Part shown: in pieces, positions 9,508-55,775 of the stretch
Layout of the letters: each line of letters opens with the position of its first letter
How positions within the stretch are numbered: position 1 is the stretch's first letter
IMG/VR virus record: IMGVR_UViG_3300018080_000105
Coordinates: 64,001-128,000 of that record
DNA: 64,000 bases
Strand: one strand, 5' to 3'
From: a virus
The notes under the pieces: generated by a model
Told to the model about the DNA's origin: nothing
Databases searched by the model: none
The model's input: only the letters and a program-made list of their open reading frames with translations
Made by a program: the position numbers and the translations under genes

Positions 9508-10134
9508 TCACTCCGGTTTGCTGATGAAATACGCTACCTTCTTTGTAAATGCAGTCGTCGCGGCTACGCGACTCCGCTGGTTTAGCTGCGCCCGCACACC
9601 CCGCATCCCCTGCTGGTCCAGATCATCACAAACAATGATCCCGCCTTCGGGCATGTGTTCAACACATCGGTCGAACATGTGGAGTGTCGGTTCCGGTACA
9701 TGTCGCCCATCCAGATAGACAAACTGCAACGGGGCTGCAGCGGCCAGGGCCGGCTCGAACGAATCGTCAAAGTGGCCTGGAAAAATCTCGACAGTCGTCT
9801 TTGGGCAAAAGATCTCCAGCGTTTCGATAGCCAGCTCTCGCTTGGCCTCGATGCCTTCCATGCCCACGTACTGCACAGGTCCGTTCTTCTCTGCGGCGGA
9901 ACACATGTACGCAGCACCAATACCGGCACAGGTTCCAATTTCAAAAATGCGGGAAGGAGCATGGTGAATAATAAACCGAGACATCGCACGACCTGCGAGC
10001 TGCCCCATGCTGGCTATTCGCACTCGCTGCTCTTTACCGACAGGCGTACCGCTCACCTCGGAGCGGTGGTAAGCGATCGCGTCACAGCGTGCACGATCTT
10101 CGTCGGTCAATATGGTGGTCGTCCAGTTGTCCAT
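9508..10134 (-). CDS. Class I SAM methyltransferase (Methyltransf_24-like)
   Basis: IFEIGTCAG, FVYLDGRH, GGIIVCDD. Start set at ATG 10134. Confidence 0.8.
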   Translation of the reverse strand: MDNWTTTILTDEDRARCDAIAYHRSEVSGTPVGKEQRVRIASMGQLAGRAMSRFIIHHAPSRIFEIGTCAGIGAAYMCSAAEKNGPVQYVGMEGIEAKRELAIETLEIFCPKTTVEIFPGHFDDSFEPALAAAAPLQFVYLDGRHVPEPTLHMFDRCVEHMPEGGIIVCDDLDQQGMRGVRAQLNQRSRVAATTAFTKKVAYFISKPE

Positions 10135-10274
10135 TTCTCGCTTCCATGCTATGGCTTCCACGGGTTTACAGTGTAACCCCGAAATCACAGAGAACAAAGG
10201 GGAACCAGACCAACGCTGGAAGCTCGCCTGGAAACATCGTACGATGCAGTAATTCCCGGGAAAGGAGTGCCTCT

Positions 10275-18430: not shown

Positions 18431-18443
18431 GTTCTTATTTACC
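18431..18443 (-). promoter_or_regulatory. Dispersed 13-mer GGTAAATAAGAAC, copy 2
   Basis: Exact copy 17 nt upstream of the deaminase ATG, same strand. Confidence 0.75.
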
Positions 18444-32175: not shown

Positions 32176-32188
32176 GTTCTTATTTACC
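32176..32188 (-). promoter_or_regulatory. Dispersed 13-mer GGTAAATAAGAAC, copy 3
   Basis: Exact copy 20 nt upstream of ATG 32155. Confidence 0.75.
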
Positions 32189-36713: not shown

Positions 36714-36909
36714 TGGTGTCCTCATTGAATTCCCATTCGATCTTGATGTGGCGAGCAATCAACTGGTCTTCCACATCCATCATCGAGCGAGCAAATCCTA
36801 CTTTATCGTTGGGATGTTTTGCTTTCAGTACGCAGTCTGCTTCCAGCAACTTCTTCTTCTCACCCTCGAAGTGAAACATCAACGCGGCTTTGACTTCCGT
36901 CACGCTCAT
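36703..36909 (-). CDS. Hypothetical protein
   Basis: Coupled. Confidence 0.5.
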   Translation of the reverse strand: MSVTEVKAALMFHFEGEKKKLLEADCVLKAKHPNDKVGFARSMMDVEDQLIARHIKIEWEFNEDTNDD

Positions 36910-37751
36910 GAATCGTGCTGCTTCTTCATGCGACCGGCCTCGAACACTTGTCGAGTAACCGCCTGGGAGATGTTCAGTGTCTTACCGACTGCATCGTCCC
37001 ACTCTTTCCAGGTGGCATATTCGTACGCGTCTTCTTCCGTCTCGCCGTACAGCTGCAACAACGCAGACACATACGCATCATCTGCACGATGACCGTCCAG
37101 GTGCAGCATGAGAAGAGCATCTGCTCTCCCGTCTGCCGCCAGGCTGATAACCATACGCGTGGCATCTTCATCGTGCACAAGATCCGGAGCCGTCTCGTCC
37201 AATTTCTGGATCCGTAACACTCCCTCGGTGTTAAACAGCCCGATATGCAACGCTGCCAGATTGTTGAACGCCGGAATCTTCACGGGCGGTCGATCGTTCC
37301 GCTCGTCGCTCTCTGCGTTCGCTTGCCGCACCTGGCTGTTGATCGCACGCACCAGCATACGAAGAGAAAACGGCGTGTCACAATGGTAGACGCCGCAGCC
37401 CAACCCTTTGTACACGTCAATGGGTGCGGGTGCTGTGCAGTCACCACCAACACGGGCCGAATTACCCGCCATAACGTGTAGCCAGTTAGCGTATGCCAGG
37501 TCCAGCCCTGGCCCCTGACACGCCCAGTACCGCCATGCGCGAGTGAATCGCCAGCTGTGGAGCGTACCGAACACGCTTGTCTGTACTTCCCCCGGAACAG
37601 TTACCGGGAACTCTTGTATATCGATCTCCGCAGCTTGCAGCTCGCCCTTCACCTGTTCGTCAACGCCCGATAACCCTGCGAGGTTTCCAAATTGTTTCAA
37701 CTCATCCGCTGCGTAAGTAGGCATCTCAGTCGGCAGATTCACCTGCATCAT
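36906..37751 (-). CDS. Hypothetical protein
   Basis: GEV...V.G.LHSWRFTRAWRYW.C.G motif typical of a conserved phage family. Confidence 0.65.
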   Translation of the reverse strand: MMQVNLPTEMPTYAADELKQFGNLAGLSGVDEQVKGELQAAEIDIQEFPVTVPGEVQTSVFGTLHSWRFTRAWRYWACQGPGLDLAYANWLHVMAGNSARVGGDCTAPAPIDVYKGLGCGVYHCDTPFSLRMLVRAINSQVRQANAESDERNDRPPVKIPAFNNLAALHIGLFNTEGVLRIQKLDETAPDLVHDEDATRMVISLAADGRADALLMLHLDGHRADDAYVSALLQLYGETEEDAYEYATWKEWDDAVGKTLNISQAVTRQVFEAGRMKKQHDS

Positions 37752-38043
37752 CTTCAGTCTCTCCTGGTTTCACGAGTTGTGTCGCCGTAATGAGCCAGTC
37801 ACCTAGTGCAGTGCCTTTCTCGTCAATGCCGGCATCGAGCTGTAGCTCGATCTTCTCGGCACCGTTCATTATCGCCCCGTGGATCAGGAACACAGCTGCT
37901 GCCGTGAACCGCAGGGACGCTTTGCAGTCGGTATCATCATTCAAGATGTTGACCGTATGCTTCATCGCACGGCCCAGAGCCGCATCGTCCCACTGGTTGA
38001 ACGGTAGTTTCTTCTCTTCTTCAGTCAGCGTCAGGATGGACAT
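37726..38043 (-). CDS. Hypothetical protein
   Basis: GAGG SD. Confidence 0.55.
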   Translation of the reverse strand: MSILTLTEEEKKLPFNQWDDAALGRAMKHTVNILNDDTDCKASLRFTAAAVFLIHGAIMNGAEKIELQLDAGIDEKGTALGDWLITATQLVKPGETEDDAGESAD

Positions 38044-38287
38044 CGAAATCCTCTACTTCTTCAAAATCCTCCGGGAACTGCCCGAAGATCTCATGGTCAC
38101 GTGATGGCATCAGGAAATGAGCCACACGACTGAATATCTGAGCGTGACGAACACTCACCTGTGCGAGCGGGTTCTGTGCCGCTCGTTGCTTCCTCGCCCA
38201 ATCCATCTCATGCCGGGCACTCTGAATGCACCAGTCACAAAACCGATTACGCTCTTCGGCAGAGAGCTCAATCTTCTGTGTCATCAT
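38021..38287 (-). CDS. Hypothetical protein
   Basis: GAGGAG SD. Confidence 0.5.
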   Translation of the reverse strand: MMTQKIELSAEERNRFCDWCIQSARHEMDWARKQRAAQNPLAQVSVRHAQIFSRVAHFLMPSRDHEIFGQFPEDFEEVEDFDVHPDAD

Positions 38288-38306
38288 TACTCCTCTTGGT
38301 TAAAGT

Positions 38307-38438
38307 GAGTGGCGACCCCTGAAGCCGCCGATAGGCATCGCCACTCATAGGAGAAAGGTCGAGGCTGCCAAACATAACCCCAGCGACCTTTCCGTCCCCA
38401 CCGTCGACTCAGCGGCGCATCATGACGGACAGGTACCG
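38307..38438 (-). ncRNA. Structured RNA element, copy A (unknown class)
   Basis: Intergenic direct-repeat partner of 38458-38578, with compensatory substitutions in two stems. Confidence 0.6.
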
Positions 38439-38457
38439 CACACTATGTGTTTCAAAC

Positions 38458-38578
38458 GGGAGGCGACCCCTTGAACTGCCGATAGGCATCCCTCCCCGGA
38501 AAATGGACCAGCCAATGAATAAAACTGGCCCCGTCCCCACCGACGACTCAGCAGTGCATCATTGTCGGACAGGTACCG
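38458..38578 (-). ncRNA. Structured RNA element, copy B (unknown class)
   Basis: As copy A; G.U pairs in the variable hairpin favour the - strand. Confidence 0.6.
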
Positions 38579-38596
38579 TAAGTATCGAGTAACCGG

Positions 38597-39880
38597 TTAG
38601 CCGCTTCTCAACTCCTCTCTTTTGGCCTTCTCAGCCAGAACTTCCTGCATTTCCTGCAGGAACAAGGATTTGTCGAACCCAGCACGCTGATAAGCACCCT
38701 GAACCTCCGCAGCAGTGTACCGCCCCTCCGGACAGGGCAGCAACTCACCGAAATACGACTCACAAAGCATATCCCACTCAGTGCGGGTCATGTACGTCAT
38801 CTCACACAACATATCGATCCTGCCCGGCCGTAGCAGAGCAGGATCCAGGCTGTCCACATGATTCGTTGTCACCAGGACGATTGCTCCGTGGCCGCTCTTC
38901 ACGCCATCCAACGCATTGAGGATCTCTCCCAGCGTGAACATCGTGGTCGTGCTGTCAGGCTCGTCGTCCGCCTTCTTCTTTTTCTTCTTCTTGCCGGACT
39001 TCACTATCAGAGCCTTCGACTCTTTCCGCTCCTTCACCACGCTGGACAGCGTGTCAATGTCTTCGACCAGGCACAGCCCGTTGTCCCCGCTGAGAATGCT
39101 CGGCAAGTCATTGTGCAGTCCTCTCTCGAACACCCGCAGGTCCCGCTTCAGGTAATTGGCCAGCGCGATGGCCAGCGATGTTTTGCCTGTGCCCGGCGGG
39201 CCATACAGACAGTATCCTCGCCGCCAGGGGATTCCCTTGCGGACATAGTCGTCTTCACGGGCCAGGAACGCATCCAGGTCCTCTTTGATCCGCATCGCCC
39301 AGTCCGAGTAGACGTTGTCGAATGTGCGACGTGGCAGCGGCACAGAGTTGTACCAGTAACCGTGCTGCCAGTCCTGCACATGCAGCTTACCGTGCTGCTG
39401 GGCCTTCCAATTGTGAATGGCCGCCTCCACCATGCCCTTCAATGTCTCTCGCTTCTTCCAGCCGTAAGCTGTCACTGAGAGCGTGAAGGTGGTGGCATTG
39501 TTGCGGTCACTGGAGTTGTTCAGCTCCCGCTTGCTGAGAATCGTGCGAATCAGGCAGCGGTCTCGGCGGTGCCAGCGGTTGCCCGTCGGCACCAACAACC
39601 CCGCCTCGCCGTCGTAGGACGGTACGTAGGCAAAGTTGCCCAGCTTGGAGTCCTTGTGCATCTCCAGCACCATCGAGAGCACTGCATCGAAGTCGGCTGA
39701 GCCCTGGTCAAACTCAACCAGGTAAGCTCCGTAGCGGTCCCACAGGCCGGTGAATCGCGACGGCAGCCCACGGGCCTGCATGACGATCCAGGTGCAGAGC
39801 GCAATGACGGCACCGCCTTTGAAGAACTCGTTCGTCTGGAATTCATTGACCAGCGCATCCTTGATCGCATTAAAGTCCAC
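38597..39880 (-). CDS. BCS1-like AAA+ ATPase
   Basis: GIPWRRGYCLYGPPGTGKTS, VEDID, LNALDG, TTNH...LDPALLRPGRID; N-terminal TM. Confidence 0.85.
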   Translation of the reverse strand: MDFNAIKDALVNEFQTNEFFKGGAVIALCTWIVMQARGLPSRFTGLWDRYGAYLVEFDQGSADFDAVLSMVLEMHKDSKLGNFAYVPSYDGEAGLLVPTGNRWHRRDRCLIRTILSKRELNNSSDRNNATTFTLSVTAYGWKKRETLKGMVEAAIHNWKAQQHGKLHVQDWQHGYWYNSVPLPRRTFDNVYSDWAMRIKEDLDAFLAREDDYVRKGIPWRRGYCLYGPPGTGKTSLAIALANYLKRDLRVFERGLHNDLPSILSGDNGLCLVEDIDTLSSVVKERKESKALIVKSGKKKKKKKADDEPDSTTTMFTLGEILNALDGVKSGHGAIVLVTTNHVDSLDPALLRPGRIDMLCEMTYMTRTEWDMLCESYFGELLPCPEGRYTAAEVQGAYQRAGFDKSLFLQEMQEVLAEKAKREELRSG

Positions 39881-41544: not shown

Positions 41545-41579
41545 AAAAGAGCACGGTAACACTCGTGCTGTTACCGTGC
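41545..41579 (-). terminator. Intrinsic terminator
   Basis: 11-bp stem GCACGGTAACA/TGTTACCGTGC followed on - by TCTTTTT. Confidence 0.75.
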
Positions 41580-41673
41580 CAATCAGTTGTTACTTCACGT
41601 GATTTACGTCCCGCCGGACAAGGGCAGTGGTACTACGCGTTCATCGCTGACGCGCACCCTGCATCACCTCCCA

Positions 41674-41801: not shown

Positions 41802-41814
41802 GTTGTTATTTACC
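41802..41814 (-). promoter_or_regulatory. Dispersed 13-mer variant GGTAAATAACAAC, copy 4
   Basis: One mismatch; 29 nt upstream of the micro-ORF ATG. Confidence 0.65.
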
Positions 41815-47168: not shown

Positions 47169-47181
47169 GTTCTTATTTACC
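47169..47181 (-). promoter_or_regulatory. Dispersed 13-mer GGTAAATAAGAAC, copy 5
   Basis: Exact copy; contains the TAA stop of the upstream gene. Confidence 0.7.
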
Positions 47182-50701: not shown

Positions 50702-51610
50702 ATGACCCGGCACATGGATATGCACGAAGGACCGCCGCCTCCACCCGACACCTACAACGTGGAGGCCTACTGCCACAACTGTGAATACGAAGGCGAAGCG
50801 GAAATCCCCAAAGGGACCAAGGTCGACGATGCCGACTGTCCTCGTTGTGGCTGTGATTGCCTGCAGGTCAAAGCCAAATTCACTGACGACCGTGTAGAAG
50901 CCGCACCCGCTGAAGAAGTTATCGAAGATTTTCTCCGCTGGCCGCCATCACAGCTCCGCGGCCCGATTAGCCCTGCGGGAGTCCCTGCCGATAACACTCC
51001 GCAGCCGCAGTGGTACTACTGCAACGACGACAGCACGCTACGCCATGCAGATCTGCAACCACCAACTGGCGACAGAACCTTTGCTGAAAGCATTCTGCGA
51101 GCAGCCGGCGGCACAATCCACCATCAGGTTCATCCGGATGGGCGGCACACGCTGAACGGGCGGGAAATCACACTTGACCAACTGAATACCGTCACCAGTG
51201 TTGATACGCCTCTTAGCGAGCGTGTCGGCATTCTAGGACAGATTGGTGTCATTCCGCCTGGTTCACAGACAAGCGGCGACGTTGTTGTCGGGCATTACCA
51301 CAACTCGCCACCACCGCCTCCACTGGGCAGAGGCCTCACTGCTGCGCCTATGGACGCTCACGGTGTTGACAACGTACCCTCGGGCGAAGGCACGCTCGCA
51401 GTAGGTTCTCCACAGGTACCGCCAGGGCTCCTGGACACCGCTACGATCGACACCACGACGCTCGACACATTGCTGTCACTTATTGACGAAGCGGCAGAGA
51501 TCGACCCAACCATGAGCGAGCCGAGTGTTGATCCTGACGAACCGGAACCCGTCAACACAGATCCACGACTGGGTGATCCTGATGGAGTACCCTGGGAAGA
51601 CTTTCGGTAA
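50702..51610 (+). CDS. Hypothetical protein with N-terminal zinc ribbon
   Basis: YCHNC...CPRCGC; GGAG SD; P/T/D-rich tail. Confidence 0.65.
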   Translation: MTRHMDMHEGPPPPPDTYNVEAYCHNCEYEGEAEIPKGTKVDDADCPRCGCDCLQVKAKFTDDRVEAAPAEEVIEDFLRWPPSQLRGPISPAGVPADNTPQPQWYYCNDDSTLRHADLQPPTGDRTFAESILRAAGGTIHHQVHPDGRHTLNGREITLDQLNTVTSVDTPLSERVGILGQIGVIPPGSQTSGDVVVGHYHNSPPPPPLGRGLTAAPMDAHGVDNVPSGEGTLAVGSPQVPPGLLDTATIDTTTLDTLLSLIDEAAEIDPTMSEPSVDPDEPEPVNTDPRLGDPDGVPWEDFR

Positions 51611-51618
51611 ATAAGAAC
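51606..51618 (+). promoter_or_regulatory. Dispersed 13-mer GGTAAATAAGAAC, copy 6
   Basis: Exact copy; contains the TAA stop of 50702..51610. Confidence 0.7.
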
Positions 51619-52376: not shown

Positions 52377-52963
52377 TAACCATGCCTTTCCTCGCCATGA
52401 TGTGCCGACCATGGGTGAAAATGGTAGCCTTGCCTTGCCACGCCACGCCACTCCTCGCCCCGCCGGTCCTTGCCCTGCAGAGCCGCGCCGAGCCGTGATG
52501 ACTCAACGTAAAAGAACACGCGAGCCTTGCCTTGCCTTGCCACGCCCCGCCCAGCCTTTCCTTGCCTTGCAGAGCCGCGCCGAGCCGTGATGGCTCAATG
52601 TAAAAGAACATGCTTGCCTTGCCTTGCCACGCCCTGCCCAGCCTGTCCTTGCCCTGCAGAGCCGCGCCGAGCCGTGATGGCTCAATGTAAAAAACATGCT
52701 TGCCTTGCCATGCTATTCCGCGCCGTGCCCAGCCTTGCCGCGACTCGCCTTGCCGTGATGGCTCAACGTAAAAGAACATGCTTGCCTTGCCTTGCCGCTC
52801 CTTGCCTGGCCAGGCCATGCCTGTCCTCGCCTTACCCTGCAGAGCCCCGCCAGGCCATGCTGGCTCAACGTAAAAGAACATGCTTGCCTTGCCTTGCCCT
52901 TCCCTGCCACGCCCTGCCACTCCTCGCCTCTCCTTGCCATGCAGCGCCGTACCTAGCCGGGCC
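52377..52963 (-). ncRNA. GGY-NN pentamer guide array (VIPR-like vrRNA array): 6 full units + 1 short
   Basis: Tracts 52963-52884 (16 pentamers), 52856-52782 (15), 52754-52700 (11), 52673-52614 (12), 52586-52522 (13), 52494-52425 (14), 52396-52377 (4). Of 81 triplets: 62 GGC, 10 GGA, 5 TGC, 2 GGT, 1 GTC, 1 AGC. Confidence 0.85.
52495..52883 (-). repeat. Five copies of the array linker GC(A/G)TGTTCTTTTAC(G/A)TTGAG(C/T)CA(TCAC/GCAT)
   Basis: 52883-52857, 52781-52755, 52699-52674 (1-nt shorter), 52613-52587, 52521-52495. Confidence 0.9.
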
Positions 52964-55762: not shown

Positions 55763-55775
55763 GGTAAATAAGAAC
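55763..55775 (+). promoter_or_regulatory. Dispersed 13-mer GGTAAATAAGAAC, copy 7
   Basis: Exact copy, immediately followed by an 11-bp hairpin (55775-55804). Confidence 0.7.

What the first reader, a model, noticed from the sequence alone, without database searches (positions are those of the whole stretch)
38307..38578. Tandem pair of covarying structured RNAs of unknown class
A 310-nt intergenic gap holds two ~125-nt related elements with compensatory changes. Closing stem GAGTGG/CCACTC vs GGGAGG/CCTCCC (two pairs swapped). On -, C-GTC/GAC-G vs C-GAC/GTC-G. A central hairpin of unrelated sequence is kept in both (AAAGGTCG/CGACCTTT; GG(A)CCAG/CTGGCC, extended by G.U only on -). Invariant single-stranded words: GGTACCTGTCC, GGTGGGGACGG, GATGCCTATCGGC, GGGGTCGCC. 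I cannot match it to a known riboswitch or ribozyme. It lies upstream of a long run of small ORFs.
Basis: partly seen in the sequence, partly recalled or inferred. Interest (0 to 1): 0.72.

Follow-up and report, generated by a model that had tools for sequence, protein, structure and literature searches.

The report
Tandem kissing-loop RNA pair, orphan phage
The only sizeable gene-free stretch in this part of an uncultured 184-kb phage holds two back-to-back copies of a folded RNA found in no catalogue or sequence collection searched; the copies differ almost only by matched mutations that keep the fold, so it is a real but orphan RNA whose job is unknown.

Summary
On the minus strand, the 309-nt gap between a BCS1-like AAA ATPase gene and an 88-aa ORFan holds two units of period 140: B at 38578-38458 and A at 38438-38307.

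Each unit has a 5-bp hairpin H1, a hairpin H2 of unrelated sequence, and an 8-9-bp hairpin H3. New here is an 8-bp helix joining the H1 loop to the H3 loop.

All 10 substitutions in H1, H3 and this kissing helix form five compensatory pairs. The roughly 43 unpaired core bases carry only two changes. G.U pairs and folding energies favour the minus strand.

Rfam, ARAGORN, a covariance model and 10 collection scans found no other copy, in the rest of this genome or in 11 related phage records. Structure therefore rests on two paralogues.

The box C/D (K-turn) reading is weakened, because its D-box strand lies in the covarying kissing helix. No TIGR-like, PeSL-like, origin or coding reading fits.

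Best guess, at low confidence: a cis-acting folded leader that controls the downstream accessory genes. This scan has noted kissing-loop leaders before in other, unrelated phage DNA.

The parts
38458..38578 (-). Unit B (121 nt), the upstream copy; it starts 18 nt after the AAA gene's stop codon
   Evidence: (R1 score 143 bits)
38307..38438 (-). Unit A (132 nt), the downstream copy; it ends 19 nt before the start codon of the 88-aa ORF
   Evidence: (R1 score 160 bits)
38540..38568 (-). H1 of unit B: 5-bp stem CCGAC/GUCGG with a 19-nt loop that holds AAUGAUGC-ACU-GCUGA-GUC
   Evidence: A-U here against U-A in unit A
38401..38428 (-). H1 of unit A: 5-bp stem CCGUC/GACGG with an 18-nt loop
38548..38555 (-). 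Kissing helix of unit B, 5' strand ACUGCUGA in the H1 loop
38475..38482 (-). Kissing helix of unit B, 3' strand UCGGCAGU in the H3 loop
   Evidence: (cognate duplex -13.1 kcal/mol)
38409..38416 (-). Kissing helix of unit A, 5' strand GCCGCUGA in the H1 loop
38324..38331 (-). Kissing helix of unit A, 3' strand UCGGCGGC in the H3 loop
   Evidence: (cognate duplex -16.4 kcal/mol)
38505..38531 (-). H2 of unit B: variable 9-bp hairpin with 3 G.U pairs, followed by AUUUUCC (weakly terminator-like)
38352..38393 (-). H2 of unit A: variable, longer hairpin (16 bp, 3 G.U) of unrelated sequence; the linker CUCCUAU behind it is complementary to the downstream Shine-Dalgarno AGGAG
   Evidence: the complementarity was read from the sequence
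38458..38496 (-). H3 of unit B: 8 bp plus one bulged G, with a 22-nt loop of conserved sequence
38307..38346 (-). H3 of unit A: 9-bp stem GAGUGGCGA/UCGCCACUC with a 22-nt loop
38439..38457 (-). 19-nt spacer between the units (GUUUGAAACACAUAGUGUG)
38285..38297 (-). Shine-Dalgarno AAGAGGAG and start codon of the 88-aa ORFan, directly behind unit A
38597..39880 (-). Upstream gene: BCS1-like AAA+ ATPase (context)
38021..38287 (-). Downstream gene: 88-aa acidic ORFan, first of a run of small ORFs (context)

Best explanation
The gap encodes two tandemly duplicated copies of one structured RNA domain. They are read on the minus strand as part of the message that runs from the AAA ATPase gene into a block of small accessory ORFs.

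Each copy folds on its own into H1, a variable H2 and H3. The loops of H1 and H3 pair through an 8-bp kissing helix, which pulls about 40 almost invariant unpaired bases into one compact core.

The two copies use different letters at two positions of the kissing helix. Each H1 therefore prefers its own H3, which would prevent misfolding between neighbouring units.

I infer that the folded core binds something, whether a small molecule, an ion or a protein. I infer that it acts in cis on how much of the downstream genes is made: ribosome access at the adjacent Shine-Dalgarno, continuation of the transcript, or its stability. Two sensors in series would resemble tandem riboswitches.

Shown: the repeats, the fold-preserving substitutions, the strand preference, and the absence from Rfam and from every collection searched. 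Inferred: transcription, the tertiary fold, and above all the cis-regulatory role. The confidence given is for the whole statement. That it is a genuine structured RNA I hold at about 0.85.
For: - **Covariation.** There are five compensatory pairs in three helices and no disruptive substitution; 95.5% of cells are paired and no slid register gives a compensatory pair.
- **Against chance.** Five pairs were reached in 3 of 20000 random trials.
- **Where changes fall.** Substitutions sit in paired columns, 10 of 43, while unpaired columns are nearly invariant, 2 of 43. H2 has diverged completely yet still folds. Conserved junctions with free stems are typical of complex-folded RNAs.
- **Kissing helix.** It is stronger within a unit than between units: -16.4 and -13.1 kcal/mol against -8.8 and -11.0.
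- **Strand.** The minus strand is favoured by G.U pairs and energies, and it is the sense strand of all neighbouring genes.
- **Position.** Unit A ends 19 nt before the start codon. Only unit A carries a CUCCU linker complementary to the Shine-Dalgarno.
- **Not coding.** The period of 140 is not a multiple of 3, and the copies differ by 1-nt and 11-nt indels.
- **Not a general signal.** The phage's own promoter-like motif GGTAAATA(A/G)GAACC is absent from the gap, so no new transcript obviously starts there. Three of the four conserved words occur only here in the genome; GGGGTCGCC has two further copies.
Against: - Only two sequences exist, and they are paralogues at one locus, so no independent evolutionary replication is available and R-scape cannot be run.
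- There is no evidence of transcription.
- MFE z-scores of the whole units are unremarkable (-1.5 and -1.6).
- No clear expression platform is present. H2 looks terminator-like only in unit B, and it lies upstream of H3, so it could not respond to the complete fold.
- The Shine-Dalgarno is not clearly sequestered.
- No ligand or partner can be proposed.
- The RNA is missing from all relatives searched, so it is not a core regulatory device of this phage group.
Confidence: 0.4

Rival explanations
1. The two units are cut out of the message, or made on their own, and accumulate as two stable small RNAs that act in trans. They could serve as decoys or sponges for a host factor or defence protein, or as the RNA part of a phage RNA-protein particle. 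The conceptual parallel is the two tandem stable RNAs of phage T4, rnaC and rnaD.
For: Size and arrangement resemble T4 rnaD (119 nt) and rnaC (139 nt), which sit 6 nt apart. A compact, heavily constrained fold with nearly invariant unpaired bases suits a recognition surface. The location is an accessory, non-conserved gene block. Regular 18-19-nt spacers flank each unit.
Against: No promoter or convincing terminator delimits the units. There is no sequence or fold similarity to T4 rnaC/rnaD, which carry a tRNA-like T arm. No tRNA genes lie nearby. No partner protein was identified.
Confidence: 0.25
2. Each unit carries a box C/D-type kink-turn (AUGAUGC ... GCUGA). It is bound by an L7Ae- or Nop-type protein, perhaps the phage's own Nop/IS110-like protein encoded 55 kb away, as a guide-RNA-like particle.
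For: In unit B the sequence GAC-AAU-GA-UGC / GC-U-GA-GUC fits the kink-turn plan of the U4 5' stem-loop and box C/D RNAs (read; the comparison rests on my own knowledge). Earlier notes on this genome describe a Nop/IS110-like and a RAMP-like protein with no RNA partner. Nop domains bind box C/D-like motifs in TIGR-Tas and IS110 systems (PMC12045711).
Against: The covarying H1 pair (columns 16/38) places the stem in a register that leaves a 3-nt bulge on the wrong strand, and unit A cannot form the canonical C stem. The D-box strand GCUGA belongs to the 8-bp kissing helix, which has two compensatory changes. The genome gives no L7Ae or Nop Pfam match. Eleven relatives that keep the Nop-like protein lack the RNA. 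The unit size of 140 nt, the two copies and the absence of variable spacers do not fit TIGR arrays.
Confidence: 0.05
3. The units are self-cleaving ribozymes or nuclease-processing signals. They would cut the polycistronic message between the AAA gene and the small ORFs, uncoupling their stability.
For: A compact pseudoknotted fold with invariant core bases is compatible with catalysis. Self-cleaving ribozymes cluster near phage genes (an earlier scan note cites Perreault et al. 2011, not checked here). In phage T7, RNase III sites sit between genes just upstream of ribosome-binding sites (my own knowledge).
Against: No hit to any ribozyme family in Rfam even at E up to 10. The hammerhead core is not matched when read by eye. 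The HDV-like plan fails because no P1 partner exists. No long double-stranded segment suitable for RNase III is present.
Confidence: 0.08
4. It is a DNA-level element rather than an RNA: a duplicated promoter/terminator cassette like the PeSLs of T4-type phages, a replication origin, or a recombination or protein-binding site with inverted repeats.
For: It lies in a plastic, accessory region just upstream of an ORFan, as PeSLs do (PMC2839356). Compensatory changes also preserve DNA inverted repeats. H2 of unit B resembles a weak terminator.
Against: No sigma-70-like promoter is present, and the phage's own promoter-like motif is absent. There are only two copies, at one locus, against about 50 dispersed PeSLs. 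Seven G.U pairs across the helices would be A.C mismatches on the other strand. A loop-loop helix has no meaning in duplex DNA. Cumulative GC skew runs straight through the locus, so there is no origin signature.
Confidence: 0.1

Closest known systems
Tandem riboswitches, especially the glycine riboswitch (two paralogous aptamers in one leader)
   Same: Two related, independently folding domains sit in series in one leader just upstream of a coding region. Junction and loop bases are conserved, and stems vary but stay paired.
   Different: There is no sequence or Rfam match, no known ligand and no recognisable expression platform. The fold (H1, H2 and H3 with an H1-H3 kissing helix) differs. 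The element occurs in one phage lineage only.
Loop-loop (kissing) tertiary architectures in purine, lysine and cobalamin riboswitches; the SAM-I K-turn plus pseudoknot
   Same: Two hairpin loops pair to organise a compact core. A K-turn-like sequence is present in one arm.
   Different: Here the kissing helix is long (8 bp). It is formed by hairpins separated by a third, variable hairpin, and it overlaps the K-turn-like motif. None of those families matches. The comparison rests on my own knowledge of those structures.
PeSL (promoter-early stem-loop) cassettes of T4-type phages (Arbiol et al. 2010, PMC2839356)
   Same: Repeated non-coding cassettes containing stem-loops, placed between a stop codon and the Shine-Dalgarno of ORFans in hyperplastic regions.
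   Different: PeSLs are short, number about 50 dispersed copies per genome and are built around a sigma-70 promoter. Here there are two adjacent 140-nt units, no promoter match and a multi-helix fold with a pseudoknot.
Phage T4 stable RNAs rnaC and rnaD (species 1 and 2)
   Same: Two adjacent non-coding RNAs of about 120-140 nt in a large phage, of unknown function.
   Different: The T4 RNAs sit in the tRNA cluster, and rnaC has a tRNA-like T arm. There is no sequence or fold similarity, and no tRNA genes occur here.
Kissing-loop leader RNAs noted earlier in this scan in other phages (notes e1-3458546 and e1-5826409; unchecked AI notes)
   Same: Two hairpins whose loops pair using different letters in each copy, located upstream of phage accessory genes and absent from Rfam.
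   Different: The sequences are unrelated: a look-up by sequence found only this stretch itself. Those leaders are dispersed copies behind promoters and in front of homing-endonuclease genes. Here the copies are tandem, have a third hairpin and have a large conserved core.

Membership tests
Any Rfam 15 family | Score at or above the family's gathering threshold | tested here: not met
   There are no matches over the whole window. At E up to 10 the best hits are Histone3 at 15.8 of 34 bits and COG3860 at 12.6 of 42.5 bits. The COG3860 score equals chance hits elsewhere in the genome.
Kink-turn / box C/D motif | Canonical C stem, 3-nt bulge on the 5' strand, tandem sheared G.A/A.G, then the NC stem | tested here: inconclusive
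   Unit B can be drawn this way (GAC-AAU-GA...GA-GUC). Unit A cannot. The covarying pair 16/38 supports a different register, and GCUGA lies in the covarying kissing helix.
Kink-turn / box C/D motif | Partner protein of the L7Ae or Nop family encoded in or available to the system | tested here: not met
   PF01248 and PF01798 give no match in the 184-kb genome, while the controls do respond. The host is unknown.
TIGR-Tas array | Five to fifteen units of alternating 8-12-nt repeats and roughly 9-nt variable spacers (or stem-loop units with dual spacers), adjacent to a Nop-domain tas gene | tested here: not met
   There are two 140-nt units. The only variable loop bases covary with each other, so they are not spacers. 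The Nop-like gene lies about 55 kb away, and relatives that keep it lack the RNA.
PeSL regulatory cassette | Strong sigma-70-type promoter combined with a stem-loop, in many dispersed copies | tested here: not met
   The gap has no promoter-like site. There are only two copies, both here. The definition is taken from PMC2839356.
Intrinsic terminator | GC-rich hairpin followed directly by a U tract | tested here: inconclusive
   H2 of unit B is flagged (7 pairs, tail GGTCCATTTT). H2 of unit A and both H3 hairpins are not. A clear terminator of this phage, at 41580-41550, has 12 pairs followed by CTTTTT.
Riboswitch (generic) | Conserved aptamer whose stems covary | tested here: met
   Five compensatory pairs and nearly invariant unpaired bases. 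The evidence comes from two paralogues only.
Riboswitch (generic) | Ligand binding and a ligand-dependent expression platform | not testable with these tools
   This needs in-line probing or reporter assays. No convincing platform can be seen in the sequence.
tRNA, tmRNA or tRNA-like RNA | Cloverleaf or T-arm recognised by ARAGORN | tested here: not met
   No gene found in the window.
Type III toxin-antitoxin RNA repeats (ToxI-like) | Tandem repeats of about 34-45 nt followed by a ToxN/AbiQ-type toxin gene | tested here: not met
   The unit is 140 nt. The downstream proteins have no PADLOC, Pfam or PHROG match. The family definition comes from my own knowledge.

The most novel reading that the evidence does not exclude
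The units are a new class of complex-folded functional RNA, either a tandem riboswitch for an unknown ligand or a new self-cleaving ribozyme. They are built on an H1-H3 kissing helix whose letters have been made orthogonal between neighbouring copies so that tandem domains do not misfold.
Probability: 0.2. Interest if true: 0.75.

Novelty: new variant of a known kind. Interest (0 to 1): 0.45.

Why it matters
If the fold is functional, it adds a new architecture to the growing set of structured leader RNAs that large phages place in front of accessory genes. It is also a clean natural example of tandem RNA domains kept from cross-pairing by matched changes in a kissing loop.

The heavy constraint on about 40 unpaired bases is the pattern seen in ligand-binding or catalytic RNAs. 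The 309-nt fragment is therefore a cheap and well-defined candidate for probing, ligand screening and cleavage assays.

Its weight is limited because it occurs in a single uncultured phage lineage, and nothing links it yet to a known pathway.

Tried and rejected
- **Known RNA families.** Rfam at gathering and at permissive thresholds gave none. The weak COG3860 hit overlapped three conserved words, but the same model scores 12.3 and 11.6 bits at unrelated places in the genome, so it is noise.
- **tRNA or tmRNA.** None found.
- **Homologue searches.**
  - blastn against 50,697 phage records found nothing.
  - Covariance model R1 was run on the phage's own genome, on 11 IMG/VR relatives found through the Nop/IS110-like protein, and with filters off on contigs of AAA ATPase homologues. 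It found only the two known copies.
  - Five exact-pattern scans of viral contigs gave nothing or single hits that R1 or reading did not confirm.
  - One metagenome scan gave 21 hits that read as coding DNA and lack the 5' domain.
  - One scan of 185,579 genomes gave 58 hits, none with the full element.
- **Synteny.** The AAA gene's closest homologue (50% identity) has no element in the 114 nt that follow it. The 88-aa ORF is an ORFan. The 281-aa ORF shares only a widespread N-terminal domain. The region is not conserved in relatives.
- **T4 rnaC/rnaD.** No similarity.
- **Promoter cassette.** No sigma-70 site, and the phage promoter-like motif is absent.
- **Replication origin.** No skew inflection.
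- **Coding.** The period is not a multiple of three.
- **Defence or toxin link.** No PADLOC hits downstream.
- **L7Ae or Nop partner.** Absent by Pfam.

Full report
**Where it is**

The window is bases 64001-128000 of a 184-kb IMG/VR phage record estimated 89% complete. All genes around the finding run on the minus strand and are tightly packed.

A BCS1-like AAA+ ATPase gene (38597-39880) ends with TAA at 38599-38597. An 88-aa acidic ORFan starts at 38287 behind AAGAGGAG. It opens a run of small ORFs with no family assignment. The 309 nt in between are the only sizeable non-coding stretch for several kilobases.

**The repeat**

On the minus strand the gap holds two units with period 140. Unit B is 38578-38458 (121 nt) and unit A is 38438-38307 (132 nt). 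An 18-nt spacer precedes unit B, and 19-nt spacers separate the two units and follow unit A.

A 48-nt 5' domain and a 40-nt 3' domain are nearly identical between the units. The 34-45 nt in between are unrelated in sequence.

GGGGTCGCC has two further exact copies elsewhere. An independent Logan assembly carries the same sequence base for base.

**The fold**

- **H1** is a 5-bp stem, CCGUC/GACGG in A and CCGAC/GUCGG in B.
- **H3** is a 9-bp stem in A (GAGUGGCGA/UCGCCACUC). In B it is 8 bp with one bulged G (GGGAGG-GA/UCGCCUCCC).
- **H2** is a different hairpin in each unit.

The three variable bases in the H1 loop are GCC in A and ACU in B. The three variable bases in the H3 loop are GGC in A and AGU in B. 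These are complementary within each unit.

They sit inside an 8-bp antiparallel match: GCCGCUGA with UCGGCGGC in A, and ACUGCUGA with UCGGCAGU in B. This is the longest helix that both conserved domains can form, and it carries two double changes.

All 10 substitutions in H1, H3 and this helix are therefore halves of five compensatory pairs. The only other differences in the core are two small indels and two bases in a loop linker.

**Is it more than chance?**

- In 20000 trials that mutated unit A at 12 random columns, five compensatory pairs inside shared helices of 4 bp or more arose 3 times. Keeping the observed columns but drawing random new bases gave 346 of 20000.
- The pair-counting tool reports 95.5% of cells paired. 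The two unpaired cells come from MAFFT misplacing a one-base gap. It finds five double changes, and none when partners are slid by 1-3 columns.
- Substitutions fall in paired columns (10 of 43) rather than unpaired ones (2 of 43), Fisher p = 0.026.
- Whole-unit folding energies are not exceptional (z about -1.5). The case rests on covariation, not on stability.

**Which strand, and RNA or DNA?**

The kissing helix has one U.G pair and each H2 has three G.U pairs. Energies favour the minus strand throughout:

| Element | Minus strand (kcal/mol) | Plus strand (kcal/mol) |
|---|---|---|
| H2 of unit A | -18.6 | -13.5 |
| H2 of unit B | -13.7 | -5.7 |
| Kissing duplex, unit A | -16.4 | -12.4 |
| Kissing duplex, unit B | -13.1 | -9.1 |

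The minus strand is also the sense strand of the neighbouring genes.

A loop-loop helix makes sense only in a single strand. Cumulative GC skew passes straight through the locus, so nothing suggests an origin. The period of 140 and the indels exclude a coding repeat.

**Cognate pairing**

Cognate loop pairs are stronger than cross pairs: -16.4 and -13.1 kcal/mol against -8.8 and -11.0. The weakest cross pair joins the H1 of unit A to the H3 of unit B. That is the mispairing most likely during transcription, because those two loops are neighbours. I read the two double changes as keeping the tandem units from swapping partners. This is an inference.

**The K-turn question**

Other first-stage notes on this same stretch stress a box C/D-like K-loop. 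Unit B can indeed be drawn as a textbook kink-turn. Unit A cannot, and the covarying H1 pair supports another register. The D-box strand GCUGA is part of the covarying kissing helix.

The genome has no L7Ae or Nop Pfam match. Another note reports a Nop/IS110-like protein 55 kb away. I used it to find 11 related phage records, and none carries the RNA. The protein and the RNA therefore do not travel together. The features that define TIGR arrays (PMC12045711) are not met.

**No relatives**

The following searches found no second occurrence:

- Rfam and ARAGORN.
- blastn against cultured phages.
- Covariance model R1 on the phage's own genome, its relatives and contigs of AAA homologues.
- Eight viral-contig scans (five by DNA pattern, three by protein), one metagenome scan and one genome-collection scan.

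The flanking genes are themselves not conserved in relatives. This is an accessory region, and the RNA is an orphan. The pattern scans need exact words, so diverged homologues could have been missed.

**Function**

The phage has a clear promoter-like motif, GGTAAATA(A/G)GAACC, in about 20 copies, many of them in gaps just upstream of start codons. None is in or near the gap, and there is no sigma-70-like site. The units are therefore most simply part of a longer message.

Only H2 of unit B resembles a terminator, and weakly. Unit A ends 19 nt before the start codon. Only unit A has a CUCCU linker that could pair with the Shine-Dalgarno, though folding does not clearly sequester the site.

The pattern of free stems and frozen unpaired bases is that of a complex tertiary fold with a binding or catalytic core. 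My ranking is:

1. A cis-acting leader that tunes the downstream accessory genes, with two sensors in series (0.4).
2. Stable small RNAs acting in trans (0.25).
3. A DNA-level cassette (0.1).
4. A ribozyme or processing signal (0.08).
5. A K-turn guide particle (0.05).

**Relation to earlier notes**

This scan has noted kissing-loop leader RNAs in other phages before. Those are unrelated in sequence, and I did not check them. They suggest that such leaders are a recurring theme in phage accessory regions, which lowers the surprise but supports the cis-leader reading.

**Verdict**

It is confined to one phage lineage and has no demonstrated function.

Noticed in passing
window 41802-41814, 32176-32188, 18431-18443, 47169-47181 (minus strand); 1389-1401, 51606-51618, 55763-55775 (plus strand); about 20 copies in the genome: A phage-specific motif GGTAAATA(A/G)GAACC is strongly enriched in intergenic DNA. 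Many copies lie in intergenic gaps, several within about 10-30 nt of a start codon. It is probably the promoter of one temporal class read by the phage's own RNA polymerase and sigma factor.
   Followed up: partly
window 41550-41580 (minus strand): A strong intrinsic terminator (12-bp stem followed by CTTTTT) sits right after a 32-aa ORF that follows one of the promoter-like motifs. This forms a very short promoter-ORF-terminator unit upstream of the gene block that contains the finding.
   Followed up: no
window 38021-38287 (minus strand): The 88-aa acidic ORFan has no homologue among 5.8 billion proteins. Its only hint is a weak match to DUF4880, the N-terminal domain of FecR-type anti-sigma factors (E = 0.0045, below the cut-off).
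   Followed up: no
window 36906-37751 (minus strand): The 281-aa protein has an N-terminal domain of about 130 aa (phrog_35792) with 506 matches in the protein library (E up to 0.001). The domain has no known function, and the C-terminal half is unique.
   Followed up: no
window 38579-38596 (minus strand): The 18 nt between the AAA gene's stop codon and unit B weakly resemble the end of the B-A spacer (ACUCGAUACUUA against ACACAUAGUGUG). This may be the vestige of a third unit or of the duplication junction (read).
   Followed up: no
G000:C1 about 9692-10181, 52515-52899, 168385-168824 (outside the window): A crude ORF map shows other unusually long gaps without ORFs (385-490 nt) in the same genome. 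These could hold further non-coding elements and were not examined.
   Followed up: no
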